From assembly GCA_024679065.1 (NCBI GenBank), contig JAGIQG010000028.1, forward strand, positions 19,716,001-19,780,000: DNA of 64,000 nucleotides, given 5' to 3'. Below the pieces are notes generated by a model. The model did no database searches. It was not told the origin of the DNA and saw only the letters and a list, made by a program, of their open reading frames with translations. How positions within the stretch are numbered: position 1 is the first letter of the stretch; every line of letters begins with the position of its first letter. Made by a program: the position numbers and the translations under genes. Of this stretch, positions 3,633 through 30,570 are shown one piece after another. Source of the DNA: Sphyrna mokarran. Its lineage: Eukaryota.

Positions 3633-4367
3633 GTACGCCCTGGAACTGGAAATGGAGTGTTAAGGGTTAGAAAGTGTTTGGTACAGTAATTAAATATGAT
3701 GAGTGATGTAATGCTGTGTAATATATGTGAACTGTGATATTCCTCTGTAACAAGCAGCAAAAAAATTCACTATCATACAAAGCTAAATCATATGGTGCAA
3801 ACCACTCCAATCATATAATTTGGTTGTTAGACATCATATTGTGCTAGCAGTAAACAGAAACCTGTGTGTAATTCATTTATACACCAATTGTTGCAAAGTA
3901 GTGACACGTTACAGGGTTGAATTAATGTCCTCCGTGAGGGCGAAGCTTGGCGAATTCTTCCACCTTTACTTTATCATGCAGCTCCCATTGCCTTACTGTT
4001 TGGTTCTGATTGTTTTCCTGGAAGTATAAAGAGATAGAGGAGAATGGCAGGAATAGATTGTGGTATTTATCTTGAGGGGCAAATTACATTACTAATAGTG
4101 TGTTGCAGGGCAGTCTGTGGTAGAGTAACTGCTGTTGGAGGAATTCTGACAGTTCTGCTCCTCACATTTAGAACAGTTTTGTTCATTGCACTTTTTTTTA
4201 ACCAAGTGGGGTGGGAATGTTTAAACGTCGTTTGTATTCTGTCTAATTTGAGCTATTGCTTGCTTCTCAGTTTTGTCTTGCTTCTTTTAAGATTTGTTTC
4301 CATGAGAATTATTCAAGTTGGGATCTTGGTGTTCTGATGCTTCTAACTGAATGTTTTGATCTTGTAG

Positions 4368-16396: not shown

Positions 16397-17184
16397 GTAA
16401 GGTTCAACTCATAGAAATACCCTGCTTAGGTGAAAGAAGAGAGTAATAGTGAGAAAATGTATGTGTAGTGTATTTCGCATGGGAAATGTATCCTTGCTAA
16501 ATCATTCAGTCTGTTCTTCAGCATAAAGTGAGGGAGCTGGTCCACTCTTCAGGACCTTTTAAAGTAATTCTTAGGGATTGAACTTTTTTTGTGTTTTTTT
16601 TTTACTGTTGAGTTACCAAGTCCAGTAATGTGTGAGAACAAAATTGATAAACACAAGTGAAAAATTGGGAATGCACCTTTAGTTAATTATTGCGTCTGTC
16701 TACTGAAGTTGTTTCCATCCCCTGTGCACTGCCGTCTTCAAATCCTCTCAGTCAGTTTGCCTTGTATCACCTGAGGCAAGCAAGGCATAAGACATGTTAA
16801 GAATTTTTCTAATCTCATTTCAAATAGATGGTGGTGCTGGAACTTAAGCTCCACCGACATTTAGCAGCTGCTTCCTGTAATAAATCTTCGGAGGCAGACG
16901 TCCCTTCATCAGAATTTCTTCATTTACAATTCCAACAGCAGTACACAGAGTGCTATCCATCAGCAGTCTATTTTCGGGAATGCCAGAGGAGCTGACACTC
17001 CCAGTTAAATACAAGGGAAAAACACCCTGATCAGTCCATCAATTGACTTCTTAATCAGGGAGTTCATATTCCAATAGGCCAACCTCAATAGCTGATTGAA
17101 GTCATTACACTTCCTTTCCAGTCTTCTCTATTCTTGAAATTGGCTGTTATTACATACTATTGAGACCTTGTAATAAAAGACGAT

Positions 17185-20932: not shown

Positions 20933-21149
20933 TTGGTGCTTCAGTTGATCCAGCTGGGGTCACAATGGTAGATTCAATAAAAATCTATGGGAAAACCAAG
21001 GAGCAGTTTGGTTGGCCCGATGAACCTCCAGAGGATTTCCCATCGGCTTCAGTAAATAATGTTGCCGTTCCAAGTGTCAGCCAGAGTAACAGCGCAGGAG
21101 AGGTGGACTCAGCCACTCCAACTTCCACCAGCGGCTCTGTTCTCGAGAG
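20933..21149 (+). CDS. UBR4: UBR4 exon w12
   Basis: ttgcag| VGASVDPAGVTMVDSIKIYGKTKEQFGWPDEPPEDF...SGSVLE+AG |gtaagc. Confidence 0.96.
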
Positions 21150-22199
21150 GTAAGCATAAGCTGAAACTGCTTGAAGTTATGTGAACTGCTTACTAACTTC
21201 TTGCTCTTCAGTTGGTAAGGAACAAATGAAGAATGATGTGCATAAAATTGACAGCATTGTAAATTAAGTTCCATTGAATAATAAATGTCAAAATACATTT
21301 TGCCCCAAGTTTTTGACTCCTAATGGAGAAAAATTTGACAAGGATAATGATACAAAACAATTGTTTATATGAGAAATGATCTCTTGTCCCTCTTGCAACA
21401 TTTGTTCTGTAACCAAAGTCTGGGCATTTTGGAGTTTCTTCTTGCTGATCCATGTGTGGCTGTTGTGTGAAAAGCTTTTCGTTACAGCATGATCTCAGAT
21501 TGTGTCCTGAGCTTGCCGTTTCTGCACAGGTGGATTCGTATGTTTCTCATGTTCCAAAATACAGTTGAATTGGGAAGTATTTAGATGTACAAAGATAACC
21601 ATTTCTTCCTACTCCTTTCATTTTTTTTCCTCTATTTTGTTTACAACCTTGGGCATGTCTGGCTTAATCTCTGCCATGAATGCTGTTTTTGAATTCCCTG
21701 AATCCATTCTTATGTATATATTGTGGCAATTATTCCAGATCAGAGTCCTTTTTTTTTGTTTTGCACCGTTCTCTCTATTTTTCTCTTTACCCCTTTCAGA
21801 CTTGTCTATCCTGTTTTCTTCTCCATCCTGTCATGTCACTTTATATTTGCTCCCCTAATTGATAATTTTCTCTGCTTCCCTACTCTTTTGCCTCTGCAGC
21901 AGACTTGAATCTTTGTTGAATAAACATTCAGCTACTCCCTATGCCTCTCTTGGCATCCTCAGAAGGGCCATTGCAGATTGCAGACAGCAATCCCAGCTGT
22001 CTCATTCTCTTAGAACAAAGAAAATTACAGCAAATTTGGCCTTCCAAGCCTCCACCGAACATGCTGCCGAACTCAATTTGCAACCTACTCACTCAATATG
22101 TTGGTTGGGTACTAACTTCACCCATCTCTCTGTTCTGCTCGCCTGTCGAGCATAGCCTCTTGAATTCTGTTAACACATCAACAACTACCAAAAACCATC

Positions 22200-22372
22200 C
22201 CTTATTTTGAATGTTTGCATTTGATATTATACTTTGAAATCTATCTCTACGTCCAAGCTATATTGTGCATCCTCTCATTTCCTTCTCTACATATAGTATG
22301 CTTTATCTGTACAGCACGCAAGAAACTATACTTTTCACTGTATACTAATACATGTGACAATAATAAATCAAA
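22200..22372 (+). mobile_element. LINE/SINE 3' tail (Rex1/Babar-like), shared with 51100-51300
   Basis: tatgctttatctgtacagcacgcaagaaactatacttttcactgtatactaatacatgtgacaataataaatcaaa. Confidence 0.55.
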
Positions 22373-22899
22373 AATTTGGTTTATTATTAACATCATCTTG
22401 CCTTTCATCAAACCCTCTGTGACTGACTATACTTTTTACCATCTCTGCTATCAGCAATTTAGCCCTTGTTACCAAGCCACAATCCACTTTTTTTAATCCG
22501 TCTGAGAACTTTTGTTTGGTAACTCCTCTCAACTGTCTCTTGCGCCACATCCCCGCTGAGCCCCATACCAAATTTCTTCACAAAGTATTCTCCCTTTCTT
22601 AGCCCCTGAGCATTTCCAAATCCTCTATGATTTAAATTTTCATCTCAACATCTTTTTCTCCTCTGTATTGTGACCACTGCTTTCCACATAAGCTTTTCTC
22701 CTCCTGTTTATACTCACTTAACCTTGTGGCCTCTCTGCTTGATCACTTGTAAGAATATGGTCAGAAATGTTCTCATATTCTTCACCTTACTCCCTTTCAA
22801 TCCTCAGTACCTTCTGCACCTGCTTCTGTAAAATAAACTACCCAAAATTACAGATGTGCTTACAAAGTCCCAGTTGCCAGACTTAGGATTTCCATTTGC

Positions 22900-24180
22900 C
22901 TTAATATTTCTGCAGCTGTTAGTTTGCTCAGCCATTCCCTCAACTCTGTCTTCTGATGCCATTGTGCCCAGAAAGCTGCCTCATCCTGGTCCATCCTCTT
23001 GTATAGTCCCATCTTGGCTCCCAAGAGCCGAATTTGTGCATATTTGGTGGCTAACTGCATTAGCAATCCATCCATTTAGCTAGACCAGATTTTCCACACT
23101 CGAATCTCTCAACTCTGCAGAGCACAGCAACAAAACAGACGAAATCAAATTGACAAATAATCTCTGTGACTGTCTATTTTACATTCTTGATCTGCCTGCA
23201 GTCACTGACATTGCTGACAACAGCAGTCTCCTTCAATGCCTCTTGACCCAAGTCCTTTCAGTGTCCTCTGTTCCCCTCCCCGACTTAGCTTCATTTATGA
23301 CTAGCTTAATGTTGCCAAAAGGTCTCCTACAAAGGTTGCTCTTTGCATTTTCTCAGTGTTTGCTCCAGTGTCCTCCAAGGAATGATCACTGATTTTTATC
23401 TACATGTTACCCCATCATTATATCATCCAACTATATTAGTGCTAACGATAGCCACCTCTATGTTTCTCAACCTCTTCACTGTTTTTCTATTATTGGACTG
23501 CTTGTCCAAAACCCAAATAGCTACAGTTTCCTCCAACAAAACATGGTAACCCAAAATCATGTCGATGGCAACACCACAAATTCCATATCCTTATCATTGA
23601 TTCCATCCTTCCTTCCTTCCTCACCACTATCTCTGGTTGGACTGTTTGCAGTCGTGACATCCTGTTTAACCCTGAGTTGATCATTTGATTCTCATCAAAA
23701 AAAAAACCACCTCTGCAATGTGCTTTCATCCACACCTAGCTCAAACCCTGTTATTCAAATCCTTATCCATTTCTTTGAACTATTGCCATTTGCTCTTGAT
23801 TAGCCTCCTACTCTCTACCCTCTACCCTCTGTAAATTCAGTCTGCACCAAGACTGCTCACCAATCTCTTGAAGGCCTGCTGATCTACGCTGGCCAATGCC
23901 TCAAAATTCTCAGCTACAAGTTTAAATCCCTGCAAGATTTTTACCTGTAATCGACTACAAACCTTCCCTTCACATCACTGCCCCTTCAACCCCAAAATCT
24001 GCTTTGACCTGGGCCTCATGTGCATCTACCCATCACCCTCCCTTTGGCTCACCTTGACATTTATGCTTTCGGGCATATACACCTAATGCCATGGAACTCC
24101 ATCCCTAAACTCTTTCATCTCTTCCCCCATTACAATCATTCCCAGAAAATCCCTGTTTTTTGCTTCACATTATCTCATCT
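22900..24180 (+). mobile_element. Decayed L2-like LINE
   Basis: C/T-rich decayed RT-like sequence (cttgatctgcctgcagtcactgacattgctgacaacagc, resembling LDLSAAFDTVDH); no long ORF. Confidence 0.5.
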
Positions 24181-24194
24181 TTTGGAATGGAGGT

Positions 24195-24535
24195 TAAATT
24201 GGTGGCATAGTGGGAATACCACTAAACAAGTCATCCAGAGGTCCAGACAAATGTTCTGGGGAAATGGGTTCAAATTCCATCACGACAGCTGGTGGAATTT
24301 AAAAATCAATTAATAAAATCTGAAATTGAAAGCCAGTTTCAGTAATGACCATGAAACTTGATTGTCATTGATGTCCTTTAGGGAAGAAGAGCTTCCATCC
24401 TTACCTGGTCTGGCTTACATGTGTCTCCAGGTCTACAATAATGTGCTTGTCTCTTAAATGCCCTCTGGAATGGTCTATTAAACCACTCAGTTGAAGGACT
24501 GGCCCACATCTTATGAAAGAATAGGGAGAAAAAAA
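24195..24535 (+). mobile_element. tRNA-derived SINE (SlmI-like core)
   Basis: Box A ggtggcatagtgg, box B gggttcaaattcc, core atgtcctttagggaag...ccttacctggtctggcttacatgtgtctccag; further copies near 31675, 40640, 49255. Confidence 0.75.
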
Positions 24536-25497
24536 TGACTGATTATAACTCTGCCCAACACTGCTGGTTTTTTACGTTTAAGACACCATAAAAATGCACT
24601 TTGTTGAATCAAGGAAAAAGACTGAGTGAACTTAAGGATAACAGGCATCTCTTACTTAAGACCCTGTAAGGTGTGTAAAATTATGCTTTTTTTATGTTGA
24701 GCTGATGGACTTTATGGTCTTGCTCAAAGCATTGATAGTTTAATGTCAATTCCAGATGTTTAAAGAAAACTGATCAATTTAAGATTTGAAAAGAAATTTA
24801 AAATGGCAAGTTTTGAATTACAAATAGTGTGTTTACACTTGGAGAACAGATGCAAGGAATTGGGGTTTAAGGAAAACCAGATCTTAAAATCTCGAGACTA
24901 GAGTGGAAGAAGGGAAAGTGAAGGGTAATCTGAAAGTTCAAGTTGTCAGTGGCAAGCACTCAGAGCAAATGGATATATTTGTTGAGTATTTTCAGCCTGT
25001 CAGGTGTTGCTGTCAGTGGTTGTGAATGTTCAGAGTTTTTCTGAATGGTAACAGGTTCTACACTAATCCTGTATGCTCGGACTGGAAACCAGATGATGCT
25101 TTTTAAAACCCCAATATGCTTCTCCATTCGAAATTGAAATCTCCCAAAGGATTTCCCCACAACCTGCTTATCTTGGTTGTGAACATGGTTGTGTGCTTAC
25201 TGACTCAGTTTCCACAATTGCAAGCAGTGCACTGAATGGGATCATGTAGGAATAAAATCTGAGAACTGCAAGTAATCCATCTCCACCAGGCTTGCTGTTC
25301 TTCTGTGAGAATTCTGTGCTGATGGCCAAATGTTCACAGCAATCTCATTGCATGACCCATCACATCCTCTGTGTGCAGGTTCTGCATGCCTGGCTGCTCA
25401 TCGTCTCTTTCAGTTTCTTTTTCTAAAGTGGTAAAAGGATTGTGTTTACTTTATTTAAAGTTCTCACGTGGTTTTCTTTTCTGTTGTTCCCTGAAAG

Positions 25498-25530
25498 TTG
25501 TGAGACTGAATCCCTAAGCTCCTTAGACCG
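25498..25530 (+). CDS. UBR4: UBR4 candidate alternative microexon (33 nt; S-CETESLSSLD-R)
   Basis: Polypyrimidine tract gttttcttttctgttgttccctgaaag| then |gttagt donor. Phase 2-2 matches the flanking exons, there is no stop codon, and four TGCATG plus a YCAY cluster lie nearby. Confidence 0.75.
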
Positions 25531-25914
25531 GTTAGTATCCCTCCTTTCTCTTTATCCTATTCTCTTTTACGTTTGTGTCTGTGTTTGCGGCATCTCACTA
25601 TTTAAAACGCAATAATCACTCACAATGTTGTCATTTGATCTGAAGACTCTTCAAAATAATACTGAAGCCAGGGCATATGTTTAAATCCATGAAATCATCT
25701 TAAGTCATCTCTCATCTTGCATGGATAGACCTCAAATTTCCCATCGATGTGGAAATATGAATAACTTGCTGGGCAATTGAATTCTATGACAATATCGCCA
25801 GATTGCATGTATTTGGTTTTTAAAGCTGTTAGTATTTTGGTTCTTTTATCTCTTGAGAGGTTATATTGGCAAGTGCTTTTAGGTAAATTAAGTAGGTGAG
25901 TTTATTCATCAACG

Positions 25915-26200
25915 GCAACTTGTATAACACCTTTAACATGATGAAATGTGCCATGGCATTTCACAGGATGGTGGTCAAACAAAATTTCACACTAAGCAGA
26001 TATTGAGCAAATGACCAAAAACCTGACCGAAGAGGTTGGTCTTAGTGGGTACCTTAAAGGAAGAAAGACGTAAGAGGTTGGGAAGGTTAGAGAGGGAATT
26101 CCGTAGTTTCGGGCCTTAGAAGATGGAAGACCCCAACAGTGGAGCAATTAACATTGGATCTGCGCAAAAGGCCAGATTAGAGATGTGCAGATAAAGTTTT
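25915..26200 (-). mobile_element. L2-like 3' fragment
   Basis: ccttaaaggaagaaagacg...agagggaattccgtagtttcgggcct; similar tracts at 5110-5410 and 59620-60100. Confidence 0.5.
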
Positions 26201-27520
26201 GCTTTTGATGTGAATTCAAAAGTGAAATCTTCATAACTTTGCACAGTGCCAGAATAAATGGAAGACCATGTAATGAGAGAGAACTCTATCAGATTCAGAA
26301 GGATTTTGACATTACAGTTAACTTAAGTTCGTAATGAGGGAGAGGACTTTAAATGTGGATAAGAATAAAATAAGAGAATAAGGATCCAAAGGGGGAAATT
26401 CTAAATGTAAGAGTGGGGCAGTGAGCTGATACAATTACAGTGACTCACTATATTAAACTGTCAGTACAGTCATTTGCTGCAGGAGTAGAAGGGTTTTGTA
26501 GAGAGATATTGATGTATATGGCATTAATTAGACTCCCATGTGAAATATTTGCGTTACCTGATCATCAGAATGCTTGTGTTGTCCTTTCAGCCATCAGGGA
26601 TGAATAACAAAGCTCATGTCCAGTTGATCTTGTTGAGATTTTGAAGATTGTGAATAGAACTGAATAATGTGGTACAGGGTCAGCATGGAAAACTTTCAGT
26701 GTGATAAAGGATTCAAGTACTATTTGAAGCAGTAATATAAATGGGGTTTGGGAACTTAGAAGGAATTGAAGGATATAGCATCAATGTGAATTATTGGACT
26801 TATCTTTCAGGCGTGGGTTTATAATTATTTTTGCTTTTGACTTTCATGCATCCATATCCCAATGTTGTCTGCTGGATTTCAAGTTTATAAAGCTTTGTCT
26901 GTAATCCTTCAGAACTGTTTCCATTCATTCAAAATCCATTTGCGTCCCTCCTTTGTCACTGTTGCAATTTTGTTTTACATTGGAAGTCATTGTCTGAAGC
27001 TCTGAATTATCCCTGACGGCTTAAGTTGTATAATGTTATGATAATATTCATTTAACTTTTCTAAGCGCTAATTTGCACTAATAATGTTCTTGTATACAGT
27101 TATGATTCTTTGTTCAAAAACAAAACTATTTATGACTTGTGCTTCATCTGCAAGCCAGCCTTTATTTTCCATAAGTTGAGTTTGAACTCAACAAAAATTT
27201 TCAACTGAAATGGCTTTTTAAATATGCTGTTAAGAAATGGTGTGCAGGCCCTTAGTTATCAGAAGTAAATTAACCATTTGAGTCTTGGACGAAAACATTT
27301 GTAATTCTGGTCTTAGGTATTGCATGTGTTCCAATTTTGGAGACGTTCTTCTTTCCATCTTCTGTGAGAGCAACCAAAGAATTGCATTATCCTAGAAATA
27401 TTACTTGTTGGTTTAGGAAGTATCAAAGCTCTTTTATGTGTATTTTATTAGCAAGAAACTCTCCTCCCTCTATCATTAATGAGTTCAGCAATTGAAAATC
27501 ATGTTTTCCTTTCTCTTTAG

Positions 27521-27584
27521 GCTGGTAGTGAGTTCAATGGAAGTGCTGGAAAGCTGCTTTGCTGTTGGATCCTCAACTGAAAAG
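27521..27584 (+). CDS. UBR4: UBR4 exon w13
   Basis: ctttag| (R)LVVSSMEVLESCFAVGSSTEK |gtaaac. Confidence 0.95.
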
Positions 27585-27812
27585 GTAAACTTATTTGCCT
27601 TTGGGATAGGGAGAAAGGGAGAGAAAGGGTTTGCACTTTTTACTTGCTTAGTAAGTAAAGAAGAAGGGCTGTTTGCTAGAAATTTCTTTTGATTTCTCAT
27701 TTTCCACTTGTTCTATTTGAGGATATGTAGAGAACGAGTTACTCAATGTAAAATCTGAGAACATATAAATTTACCTTTTAAATGTTTACTGACTATATCT
27801 GTTGTCTCACAG

Positions 27813-28470: not shown

Positions 28471-28645
28471 GATCAAGCTCTGCTGAATAATGCTGTGCAG
28501 ATTCTGAATACTTGGAACAAGGATGGTCGTGACCTTGATCCAGAAGTATTCCAGCGGCTAATAATCACAGCACGTTCCATCGCAATGATGCGACCCAATA
28601 ACCTTGTGCACTTCACAGAGGTGAAAGCACCACAAACGGATAAAG
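28471..28645 (+). CDS. UBR4: UBR4 exon w15
   Basis: gattag| [58 protein letters not shown]+G |gtgagc. Confidence 0.95.
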
Positions 28646-28707
28646 GTGAGCAAATTCAGTAAATACTGGAAGTATTCCAACAGGCTGCCTTATCAATAAG
28701 AGAATGG

Positions 28708-29515
28708 ATGAACATAGAACAGTACAGGGCCTTTGGCCCTCGATGTTGTGCTGAGTTATGTCCAAACCCAAGATCAAGCTATCCACTCCCTATCATTCTG
28801 GTGTGCTCCATGTACCTATCCAGTAATCACTTGAAAGTTCCTAAAGTGTCTGACTCCACTATCGCAGCAGGTATCACAGAATGTACATCCCAATCACTCG
28901 CTGAGTAAAGAATCTACCTTGGACATCTCTCCTATATCTCCCATGATGAACCTTATAGTCATGCCCCCTAGTTACAGCTACATCCACCTGAAAAAATAGT
29001 CTCTGCACATCCACTGTATCTATCTCCCTCATCATCTTATAAACCTTTAAGTTGCCTCTCATCTTCCTCCACTCTAAAGAGAAAAGCCCCAACTCTCTCA
29101 ATCTTTCCTCATAAAACCTACCCTCCAAACCAAGCAGTATGCTGGTAAATCTCCTTTGTATGCTCTCCAAGTGCTTCCACATATTCCTTATATGTGTAAG
29201 GTGCGGTGACCAAAACTGCACACAGTATTCTAAATGTGGTCTCTTCAAGATCTGGTATAGTTGCAGCATAACCCCACAGTTTTTAAGCTCAAACCCCCTA
29301 TTAATAAATGCTATAGGCCTTCTTCACGACTCTATCCACTTGGGGTGGCAACCTTCAGGGATCTGTGGATATGAACCCCTAGATCTCTCTGTTCCTCCAT
29401 GTTCCTCAGAACCCTGCCGTTGAACCTATAATCCACATTCAAGTTTGTCCTACCAAAATGAATCACCTTGCACTTATCAGGGTTAAACTCCATCTGCCAC
29501 TTTTCTGCCCAGCAG
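28708..29515 (-). mobile_element. CR1 3' fragment
   Basis: ORF 28874-29269 RPHLEYCVQFWSPH...GRFFTQRV; tail aacatagaacagtacag. Confidence 0.9.
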
Positions 29516-29799: not shown

Positions 29800-30570
29800 A
29801 TATTCTGTTAGGTCTCAGCTGATTTATAATTCAACTCATTTACCCATCTTTGATCCATATCTTTTGATATCCTTGCAGAATAAAATCTGGCTAACTTAGT
29901 TTTGAAAATTTTAACAGGCCCAACATCCAGAGGCTTTGGGTTGTGAGTTTCAGACTTTTATTACTCCTTGTACGGGAGAGAGGTGCGGAAACCACTGATT
30001 TCACTCCAGAGTGCCTAGATGTAGTCTGAATACCTTAATTAGATATCTACTTAATTGTCTAAACGTAAGGGACTATTAACCAGGTTTTTGTAACATTTCG
30101 TCATATTTAACCCATCAAGACCTGGTACCGTTCTGGTAAATCTGTATCCAACCCAAGGCCAGTAAATCTTTGCTGAGGTTAGCAGCCCAAAGCAGGCACA
30201 ACTGAAGTATTCCAGCGGCTAATAATCACAGCACGTTCCATTGCAATGATGCGACCCAATAACCTTGTGCACTTCACAGAGGTGAAAGCACCACAAACGG
30301 GTAAAGGTGAGCAAATTCAGAAAATACTGGAAGTATTCCAACAGGCTGCTGTATCAATAAGAGAATGGATGAACATAGAACAGTACAGGGCCTTTGGCCC
30401 TCGATGTTGTGCTGAGTTATGTCCAAACCCAAGATCAAGCTATCCACTCCCTGAAGTACAACTGAAGTATTGCTGCCTGCAGCCCCCTGAAGTAAAAACC
30501 CAACATTTCAGCAGATTTGTTGATTCCCTTTTTATGCCCTGCACTAGCTTTTTGGTGAAATTCTCATGAA
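29800..30570 (-). mobile_element. Old CR1 fragment interrupted by an exon-derived insertion
   Basis: cctggtaccgttctggtaaatctg...gcccaaagcaggcacaac...ccccctgaagtaaaaacccaacattt is collinear with the CR1 3' region across the insert. Confidence 0.55.
30204..30452 (+). repeat. 249-bp local duplication of 28543-28791 (exon w15 3' part, donor and CR1 tail)
   Basis: Direct alignment with about 5 substitutions; flanked by the 14-bp direct repeat ACAACTGAAGTATT (30198-30211, 30458-30471). Confidence 0.95.

What the first reader, a model, noticed from the sequence alone, without database searches (positions are those of the whole stretch)
25340..25810. Hidden 33-nt frame-preserving UBR4 microexon with an RBFOX/NOVA regulatory signature
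Seen: in the 6.4-kb intron between w12 and w13, a clean pyrimidine tract and AAG acceptor precede TTGTGAGACTGAATCCCTAAGCTCCTTAGACCG, followed by the donor GTTAGT. Phase 2-2 turns LE-R-LVVSS into LE-SCETESLSSLDR-LVVSS. TGCATG (RBFOX site) occurs at 25349, 25383, 25718 and 25804, and four YCAY (NOVA) motifs cluster at about 25687-25715. Established: downstream RBFOX and NOVA sites promote neural or muscle exon inclusion. I recall a similar SETESL-like insert in predicted mammalian UBR4 isoforms (unverified), which would make it conserved across jawed vertebrates.
Basis: partly seen in the sequence, partly recalled or inferred. Interest (0 to 1): 0.7.

Follow-up and report, generated by a model that had tools for sequence, protein, structure and literature searches.

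The report
Ancient optional mini-exon in UBR4
A 33-base optional exon in the gene for the giant protein-disposal enzyme UBR4 is real and kept from sharks to apes; it is already in gene databases, but it adds 11 amino acids in frame rather than a stop signal, and seems to lengthen the tether of the enzyme's substrate-catching module.

Summary
The exon (25498-25530) is real, frame-preserving and conserved across jawed vertebrates, but already annotated. Of 274 stored vertebrate UBR4 records, 138 carry the 11-residue insert (sharks to chimpanzee) and 129 lack it. Bird-like and teleost-like genomic contigs keep the exon with the same AAAG/GTTAGTA ends. A spliced contig matching this window shows skipping; inclusion was not seen in this species. 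A Parkinson's preprint RT-PCR-validated a microexon in the same human intron, included in midbrain neuron cultures, but calls it stop-containing, which ape in-frame isoforms contradict. RBFOX motifs are enriched and recur in all three genomic sequences; the YCAY (NOVA) cluster is background-level and unconserved. No regulator was tested directly. Not found in my ten literature searches: the peptide ends the disordered linker between a DOC domain and the armadillo scaffold, swaps in at the helix start (both models overlay cryo-EM residues 2470-2594), carries the ancestral invertebrate L-[TS]-x-x-D motif that the skip form lacks, and parasitoid wasps have their own optional insert at the same site. 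The scan had not noted this before.

The parts
20934..21149 (+). Upstream UBR4 exon: end of the DOC domain and the disordered Ser/Thr-rich linker, ending ...SGSVLE-R in phase 2 (human residues 2406-2476)
25349..25354 (+). TGCATG (RBFOX motif) at -149; the teleost-like locus L002 has one at -141
25383..25388 (+). TGCATG at -115; L002 has one at -112; none within 300 nt upstream in the bird-like L001
25459..25460 (+). Second AG 37 nt upstream of the exon. A Chiloscyllium isoform extends the exon 12 residues into this tract in frame; here the 70-nt form would hit a stop
25461..25497 (+). Pyrimidine tract and AAAG acceptor; TGT at -13 where L001 has TGC (L002 has TGC at -24)
25498..25530 (+). 33-nt phase 2-2 cassette exon encoding (S)CETESLSSLD(R); 26/33 identical to L001 and 25/33 to L002
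25531..25537 (+). Donor GTTAGTA, identical in L001 and L002, followed by a pyrimidine-rich stretch
25687..25715 (+). Four YCAY; background-level and not conserved
25718..25723 (+). TGCATG at +188 (L001 has one at +131, L002 at +41)
25804..25809 (+). TGCATG at +274
27521..27585 (+). Downstream exon, (R)LVVSSMEVLESCF..., first helix of the armadillo scaffold after the DOC domain (human 2478-2498)

Best explanation
This is an ancient, frame-preserving, regulated cassette microexon of UBR4, the scaffold of the SIFI ubiquitin ligase. SHOWN: it exists, is in frame, is conserved from sharks to apes and occurs in both skipped and included forms. INFERRED, splicing: short length and an AAG acceptor make skipping the default; in neurons RBFOX on the downstream UGCAUG sites, probably with SRRM3/4 or relief from PTBP1, raises inclusion. 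MODELLED, protein: inclusion does not change the fold. The last residues of the peptide (E-S-L-S-S-L-D-R) take over the start of the first armadillo helix after the DOC domain, pushing the former start (T-S-G-S-V-L-E) into the disordered linker, which grows from 45 to 56 residues and gains three acidic residues. INFERRED, function: neurons get a UBR4 with a longer tether for the DOC1-UBR box-KCMF1 substrate module and the ancestral helix-start motif, which fine-tunes substrate reach instead of switching the enzyme off. My odds: real, in frame and conserved 0.97; neuron-enriched 0.75; RBFOX contributes 0.6; measurable effect on SIFI activity 0.35.
For: Of 274 vertebrate-type records of 2,500 aa or more, 138 carry the insert, 129 lack it, 3 carry a longer insert ending in the same peptide and 4 are unclassifiable. 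The identical SCETESLSSLD is in 7 shark and ray records. Both forms occur within single species, e.g. Mobula birostris, Polypterus, sterlet, Xenopus tropicalis, Sorex and three marsupials. Genomic L001 and L002 keep the exon, its AAAG/GTTAGTA ends and downstream TGCATG. A 13,941-nt contig with no mismatch in its four listed pieces joins 21149 to 27521, so the exon is not constitutive here. Human RT-PCR primers lie in the orthologous flanking exons; the labelled 172-bp band equals the computed skip product and the inclusion label sits near 200 bp (205 expected). Inclusion is predominant in control midbrain neuron cultures and falls with DOCK3 (27 nt) and CAMTA2 (21 nt) exons in GBA1 mutants. 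TGCATG is the one motif enriched downstream of alternative micro-exons (PMC4317164). AlphaFold2: disordered 153-197 with helix from 203 (included); disordered 158-188 with helix from 192 (skipped). Both models overlay 9qwz_B 2470-2594 over 125 residues at 1.5 A. The KCMF1 module is flexibly attached (PMC12286842).
Against: Inclusion was not observed in this species. The inclusion records are gene-model predictions whose reads I did not see. No tissue panel, CLIP or knockdown data were found: no UBR4 row in the five microexon or regulator supplements I could search, some only partly readable. Two window TGCATG sites are upstream, downstream positions differ between species (+188/+274, +131, +41), and one site within 300 nt has about 0.11 chance. 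Only skip records were seen for Callorhinchus (3), Latimeria (3), echidna (3) and the snake Erythrolamprus (7). The latest preprint version calls the human exon stop-containing. Both structure models share 41 non-vertebrate-type alignment rows, which may bias the helix start. Eleven residues added to an already disordered 45-residue linker may do little.
Confidence: 0.62

Rival explanations
1. It is part of the SRRM3/4 neural microexon programme, with RBFOX secondary: a UGC enhancer just before the 3' splice site drives neuronal inclusion.
For: TGC at -13 in L001 and -24 in L002, in the same TTG[CT]TCCC context, with a long pyrimidine tract and AAG acceptor in all three sequences. It shifts together with 27- and 21-nt DOCK3 and CAMTA2 exons. 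SRRM4 acts through UGC in this region (PMC12871342).
Against: The window has TGT at that place and its nearest upstream TGC is at -103. 33 nt exceeds the 3-27 nt class. No Ubr4 hit in the searchable supplements of two Srrm papers. Non-UGC microexons also rise in neurons.
Confidence: 0.3
2. It is a poison exon that lowers UBR4 levels through a premature stop and nonsense-mediated decay, as the 2026 preprint version states.
For: The preprint text. A larger 'cryptic' RT-PCR band exists. Use of the AG at 25459-60 would give a 70-nt form with a stop in this species.
Against: The 33-nt exon is open in phase 2 in the window, L001 and L002. Chimpanzee, orangutan, macaque and mangabey records carry the in-frame peptide. 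L is kept in 20 of 20 and D in 20 of 20 distinct peptide variants, as expected under protein-level selection. Read from its first base the exon gives two TGA stops in all three sequences, a likely source of the stop call (inference). I could not see the human exon sequence or the preprint's figure S15.
Confidence: 0.05
3. NOVA-driven exon.
For: Four YCAY at +157 to +182 downstream of the exon.
Against: Same density as background (10 such clusters on the + strand, 12 on the - strand), and no three-YCAY cluster near the exon in L001 or in the 135 nt available downstream in L002.
Confidence: 0.12
4. Broadly and variably included, functionally near-neutral linker variant kept only because it is harmless.
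For: It falls in a disordered linker whose length varies from 38 to 54 residues in invertebrates. The helix is the same length in both models. Most single microexon deletions in zebrafish have minimal effect (title and abstract start of PMC12626420).
Against: Peptide and splice-site conservation from sharks to apes, retention of the ancestral helix-start motif, and an independent optional insert at the same site in wasps.
Confidence: 0.2

Closest known systems
UBR4 'exon 50 of 108' microexon, chr1:19148626-19150575 (bioRxiv 10.1101/2024.02.28.582420; earlier version PMC12424998)
   Same: Same intron by primer position and 172-bp skip product; included in human midbrain neuron cultures and skipped more in Parkinson's mutant lines.
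   Different: The preprint calls it stop-containing and reads skipping as more protein; all evidence here points to an in-frame 11-residue insert. The passages read give no conservation or structural context.
RefSeq/GenBank predicted UBR4 isoforms, e.g. XP_062888964.1 (Mobula hypostoma X1), XP_073794957.1 (zebrafish X9), XP_054535998.2 (chimpanzee X10)
   Same: Same 11-residue insert at the same place; identical peptide in several sharks and rays.
   Different: Database models only, without function, tissue or regulator.
RBFOX/PTBP1-regulated alternative micro-exons of 51 nt or less (Li et al. 2015, PMC4317164)
   Same: Size, frame, pyrimidine-rich upstream flank, downstream TGCATG.
   Different: Also has upstream TGCATG in shark and teleost; UBR4 was not found in the searchable supplements; binding untested.
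SRRM3/4-dependent neural microexons (3-27 nt)
   Same: Deep vertebrate conservation, in frame, UGC before the acceptor in the bird-like and teleost-like loci.
   Different: 33 nt; UGU instead of UGC in the window.
Human SIFI / UBR4-KCMF1-calmodulin cryo-EM structures (9qwz, 9d9z; PMC12286842, PMC7618180)
   Same: Same DOC-linker-armadillo anatomy; helix region overlays at 1.5 A.
   Different: All 4 distinct PDB UBR4 sequences matched are the skip form; neither paper's main text contains 'isoform' or 'splic'.

Membership tests
Alternatively spliced micro-exon (<=51 nt) | Length of 51 nt or less with canonical AG/GT ends | tested here: met
   33 nt, AAAG / GTTAGT
Alternatively spliced micro-exon (<=51 nt) | Both skipped and included transcripts exist | tested here: met
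   Skip junction in run X1; both forms annotated within single species; human RT-PCR. Inclusion not seen in the window's own species
Alternatively spliced micro-exon (<=51 nt) | Frame-preserving and conserved | tested here: met
   Phase 2-2; 138 of 274 records; L001 and L002
RBFOX-activated exon | UGCAUG in the downstream intron across species | tested here: met
   +188/+274, +131 and +41 in 3 of 3 genomic sequences; positions not aligned
RBFOX-activated exon | RBFOX binding and loss of inclusion on RBFOX depletion | not testable with these tools
   No CLIP or knockout data reachable; paper searches and a supplement search gave nothing on this exon
NOVA-regulated exon | Conserved YCAY cluster above background | tested here: not met
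   10 and 12 equal clusters on the two strands; no cluster near the exon in L001 or L002
SRRM3/4 neural microexon | Length 3-27 nt | tested here: not met
   33 nt
SRRM3/4 neural microexon | UGC between pyrimidine tract and 3' splice site | tested here: inconclusive
   Present in L001 (-13) and L002 (-24); TGT in the window
SRRM3/4 neural microexon | Neuron-specific inclusion dependent on SRRM3/4 | not testable with these tools
   Only the preprint's statement of predominant inclusion in midbrain cultures
Poison (NMD) exon | In-phase stop or frameshift on inclusion | tested here: not met
   Open in phase in the window, L001 and L002; in-frame ape records; human DNA not seen

The most novel reading that the evidence does not exclude
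The intron at the start of UBR4's first post-DOC armadillo helix is a splicing rheostat used twice in evolution. In jawed vertebrates the optional exon holds the ancestral helix-start motif (L-[TS]-x-x-D-R) while the constitutive exon ends in a degenerate stand-in. In parasitoid wasps the constitutive part keeps the motif and an unrelated optional 10-11-residue piece supplies the stand-in. Either way inclusion lengthens the tether of the KCMF1 substrate module by about ten residues, giving neurons their own SIFI geometry. The skipping reported in Parkinson's models would then be a switch from neuronal to non-neuronal SIFI, not a gain of protein.
Probability: 0.3. Interest if true: 0.62.

Novelty: already known. 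Interest (0 to 1): 0.38.

Why it matters
UBR4/SIFI silences the integrated stress response and is mutated in ataxia and early-onset dementia (PMC10881396), yet every solved UBR4 sequence matched here is the skip form. If neurons mainly make the +11 form, the disease-relevant enzyme has not been studied. The in-frame reading also reverses the interpretation that a Parkinson's preprint gives to this splicing change. The exon itself is not a discovery; the structural placement, the ancestral motif and the wasp parallel give a cheap, testable hypothesis.

Tried and rejected
No whole genome was held for the window. Sequencing runs: no RNA holder listed; one run of guessed type. Its contigs gave no cover over the microexon; contigs drop rare variants and the tissue is unknown, so this is no evidence against inclusion. 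Supplement searches for UBR4 were negative in PMC12626424 (12 files), PMC4387716 (one file not searchable), PMC12868881 (1 file), PMC12626420 (one file not searched) and PMC4317164 (one file not searchable); PMC10987577's files could not be read. Several of these papers use size cut-offs below 33 nt, and the unseen files, the bioRxiv supplements (figure S15) and VastDB may list the event. UBR4 mentions in PMC6429586 and PMC5538435 were only reference titles; PMC12397408 discusses other UBR4 isoforms. The scan's notes held nothing on this locus. The metagenome scan gave only 2 informative vertebrate loci of 3, so motif conservation rests on three sequences. My first insert tally mis-scored N-starting and extended inserts as skips and was replaced. 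One search used a downstream start one base too far; 27521 is confirmed by the printed sequence. Origin by tandem duplication of the upstream exon's last 33 nt was considered: by eye about 8 of 33 bases match, i.e. chance, so duplication versus intron gain is unresolved. No lamprey record was listed; one hagfish record ends SPTTSLD-R with a 53-residue linker (counted by hand) and cannot show an exon. No complex prediction was run.

Full report
Observation. The window holds part of a UBR4 gene; its exons match the houndshark Mustelus asterias protein mostly at 90-100% identity, so it is very likely a shark (inference). The described exon is there: AAAG acceptor, 25498-25530, donor GTTAGT, between exons ending at 21149 and starting at 27521. 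It is phase 2-2 and inserts SCETESLSSLD between human-equivalent E2476 and R2477. The four TGCATG and four YCAY are at the stated places. The TGCATG cluster is the densest in the window (25 sites in all; P about 1e-4 for a fixed site, 0.017 as a scan). The YCAY cluster is ordinary, with 10 equal clusters on the + strand and 12 on the - strand.

Is it an exon? Yes. Of 274 stored vertebrate-type UBR4 proteins of 2,500 aa or more, 138 carry an 11-residue insert at this site, 129 lack it, 3 carry a longer insert ending in the same peptide and 4 could not be classified. These are isoform records, not inclusion levels, and only up to 15 members per cluster were listed. The insert occurs in sharks and rays (SCETESLSSLD in 7 records), bichir, sturgeons, gar, teleosts, frogs, salamanders, a caecilian, turtles, an alligator, birds, some snakes, marsupials and placentals including chimpanzee. 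Among 20 distinct variants, L at position 7 and D at position 11 are invariant. Only skip records were seen for Callorhinchus, Latimeria, echidna and Erythrolamprus. Two genomic contigs, L001 (bird-like) and L002 (teleost-like), hold the exon in the same intron with the same AAAG and GTTAGTA ends and 26 and 25 of 33 bases identical to the window. One public run gave a 13,941-nt spliced contig, with no mismatch in its four listed pieces, that joins 21149 to 27521, so skipping occurs in this organism; inclusion was not seen there.

What is in print. A Parkinson's preprint reports a UBR4 microexon, 'exon 50 of 108', predominantly included in control midbrain neuron cultures and skipped more in mutant lines (bioRxiv 10.1101/2024.02.28.582420: passages and section 13 read). 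Supplementary figure S10 of its earlier version (PMC12424998: passages and one supplement part read) gives primers that translate to PSASVSN and VGPIIE, the two flanking exons. The labelled 172-bp band equals the computed skip product (57 codons plus 1 base), and the inclusion label lies near 200 bp (205 expected). So it is the same intron and almost surely the same exon. The latest version says the exon holds a premature stop. That conflicts with in-frame ape records. Read from its first base, ignoring phase 2, the exon gives two TGA stops in all three genomic sequences, which may explain the claim (inference; human DNA and figure S15 not seen). Ten literature searches (listings only unless stated) found no paper on the function, regulator or structure of this exon.

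Regulation. TGCATG lies at -149, -115, +188 and +274 in the window, at -141, -112 and +41 in L002 (all 3 sites of its 1,496 nt), and at +131 in L001 (1 of 6 sites in 18,213 nt). Downstream TGCATG is the hallmark of alternative micro-exons (PMC4317164, passages), so RBFOX activation is likely. The upstream pair shared by shark and teleost would usually repress (recalled), so the signature is mixed. NOVA is unsupported. No binding or knockdown data could be reached.

Protein context. I folded related shark and ray proteins with and without the insert (50-row alignments). The N-terminal part is a DOC fold (APC10 Z 12.1, rmsd 3.4 A, 131 aligned; HERC2 DOC Z 11.9, rmsd 2.6 A, 123 aligned); that it is the DOC1 of the SIFI papers is inferred from its position. 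DOC1 binds the UBR box and KCMF1 in a module that is flexibly attached to the armadillo ring (PMC12286842, first part of section 5 and passages). A disordered linker follows (pLDDT under 50 at 153-197 with the insert, 158-188 without), then a helix that starts three residues before the junction arginine in both models. Both overlay chain 9qwz_B residues 2470-2594 over 125 residues at 1.5 A. The microexon's last residues therefore occupy the place of human 2470-2477, and the displaced residues join the linker. The shared alignment rows may bias this.

Evolution. Of 57 non-vertebrate or unnamed sequences, 54 parsed: L/M/I at -5 in 52, T/S at -4 in 51 and D at -1 in 49 before the helix; the 3 missed also carry the motif. 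Many of these are related, so they are not independent. Against this profile the microexon ends score +8.0 to +11.3 bits in six vertebrate lineages and the skip ends -1.2 to -4.6. Linker length runs the other way: invertebrate median 43, skip 45, inclusion 56. The optional exon thus carries the ancestral sequence and the skip form the ancestral length. Amphioxus (PEETLSTTDR) shows no variation at this site in the 12 listed records that cover it. In Hymenoptera 11 of 28 records carry a different 10-11-residue insert at exactly this site, with both forms in Fopius, Diachasmimorpha, Venturia, Nasonia and Microctonus. There the constitutive part keeps the motif and the insert ends in I/V-E-R, the mirror image of vertebrates. 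Whether the wasp insert is a cassette exon or a shifted splice site cannot be told from proteins.

Verdict. The RBFOX reading is plausible, the NOVA reading is not supported. What adds interest is the in-frame correction, the placement at the tether of the KCMF1 module, the ancestral motif and the wasp parallel, all untested at the bench. Interest 0.38; already known.

Noticed in passing
window 30204-30452: A 249-nt, 98% identical copy of 28543-28791 (3' part of exon 28472-28645, its donor and the start of a repeat), without the exon's acceptor; a recent local duplication or an assembly artefact.
   Followed up: partly
window 3633-3665: Alternative donor 33 nt downstream adds VRPGTGNGVLR, present in 9 of 15 aligned shark and ray isoforms.
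   Followed up: partly
window 16397-16429: Second possible donor about 33 nt downstream adds KVQL(I/M)EIPCL just before the DOC domain; seen in 1 of 15 isoforms (Mustelus X5).
   Followed up: partly
window 37305, 37323, 37329: Three tandem in-frame acceptors give [10 protein letters not shown] or no extension in shark isoforms.
   Followed up: partly
window 25459-25460: An upstream AG matching a Chiloscyllium isoform's in-frame extension would give a 70-nt, stop-containing exon here; Xenopus laevis also has a longer form, and the human gel shows a 'cryptic' band.
   Followed up: partly
proteins P0276, P0476, P0483, P0494, P0529, P0281: Parasitoid wasps have an independent optional 10-11-residue insert at the same site of UBR4/poe.
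   Followed up: partly
window 25860-25895: A second open-frame AG..GT candidate of 36 nt in the same intron; no matching insert appeared in the 15 aligned shark and ray proteins, so probably chance.
   Followed up: no
window 22000-24400 and 28800-29500: C-rich, strand-skewed and high-copy stretches that many contigs of run X1 match; they look like mobile-element remnants.
   Followed up: no
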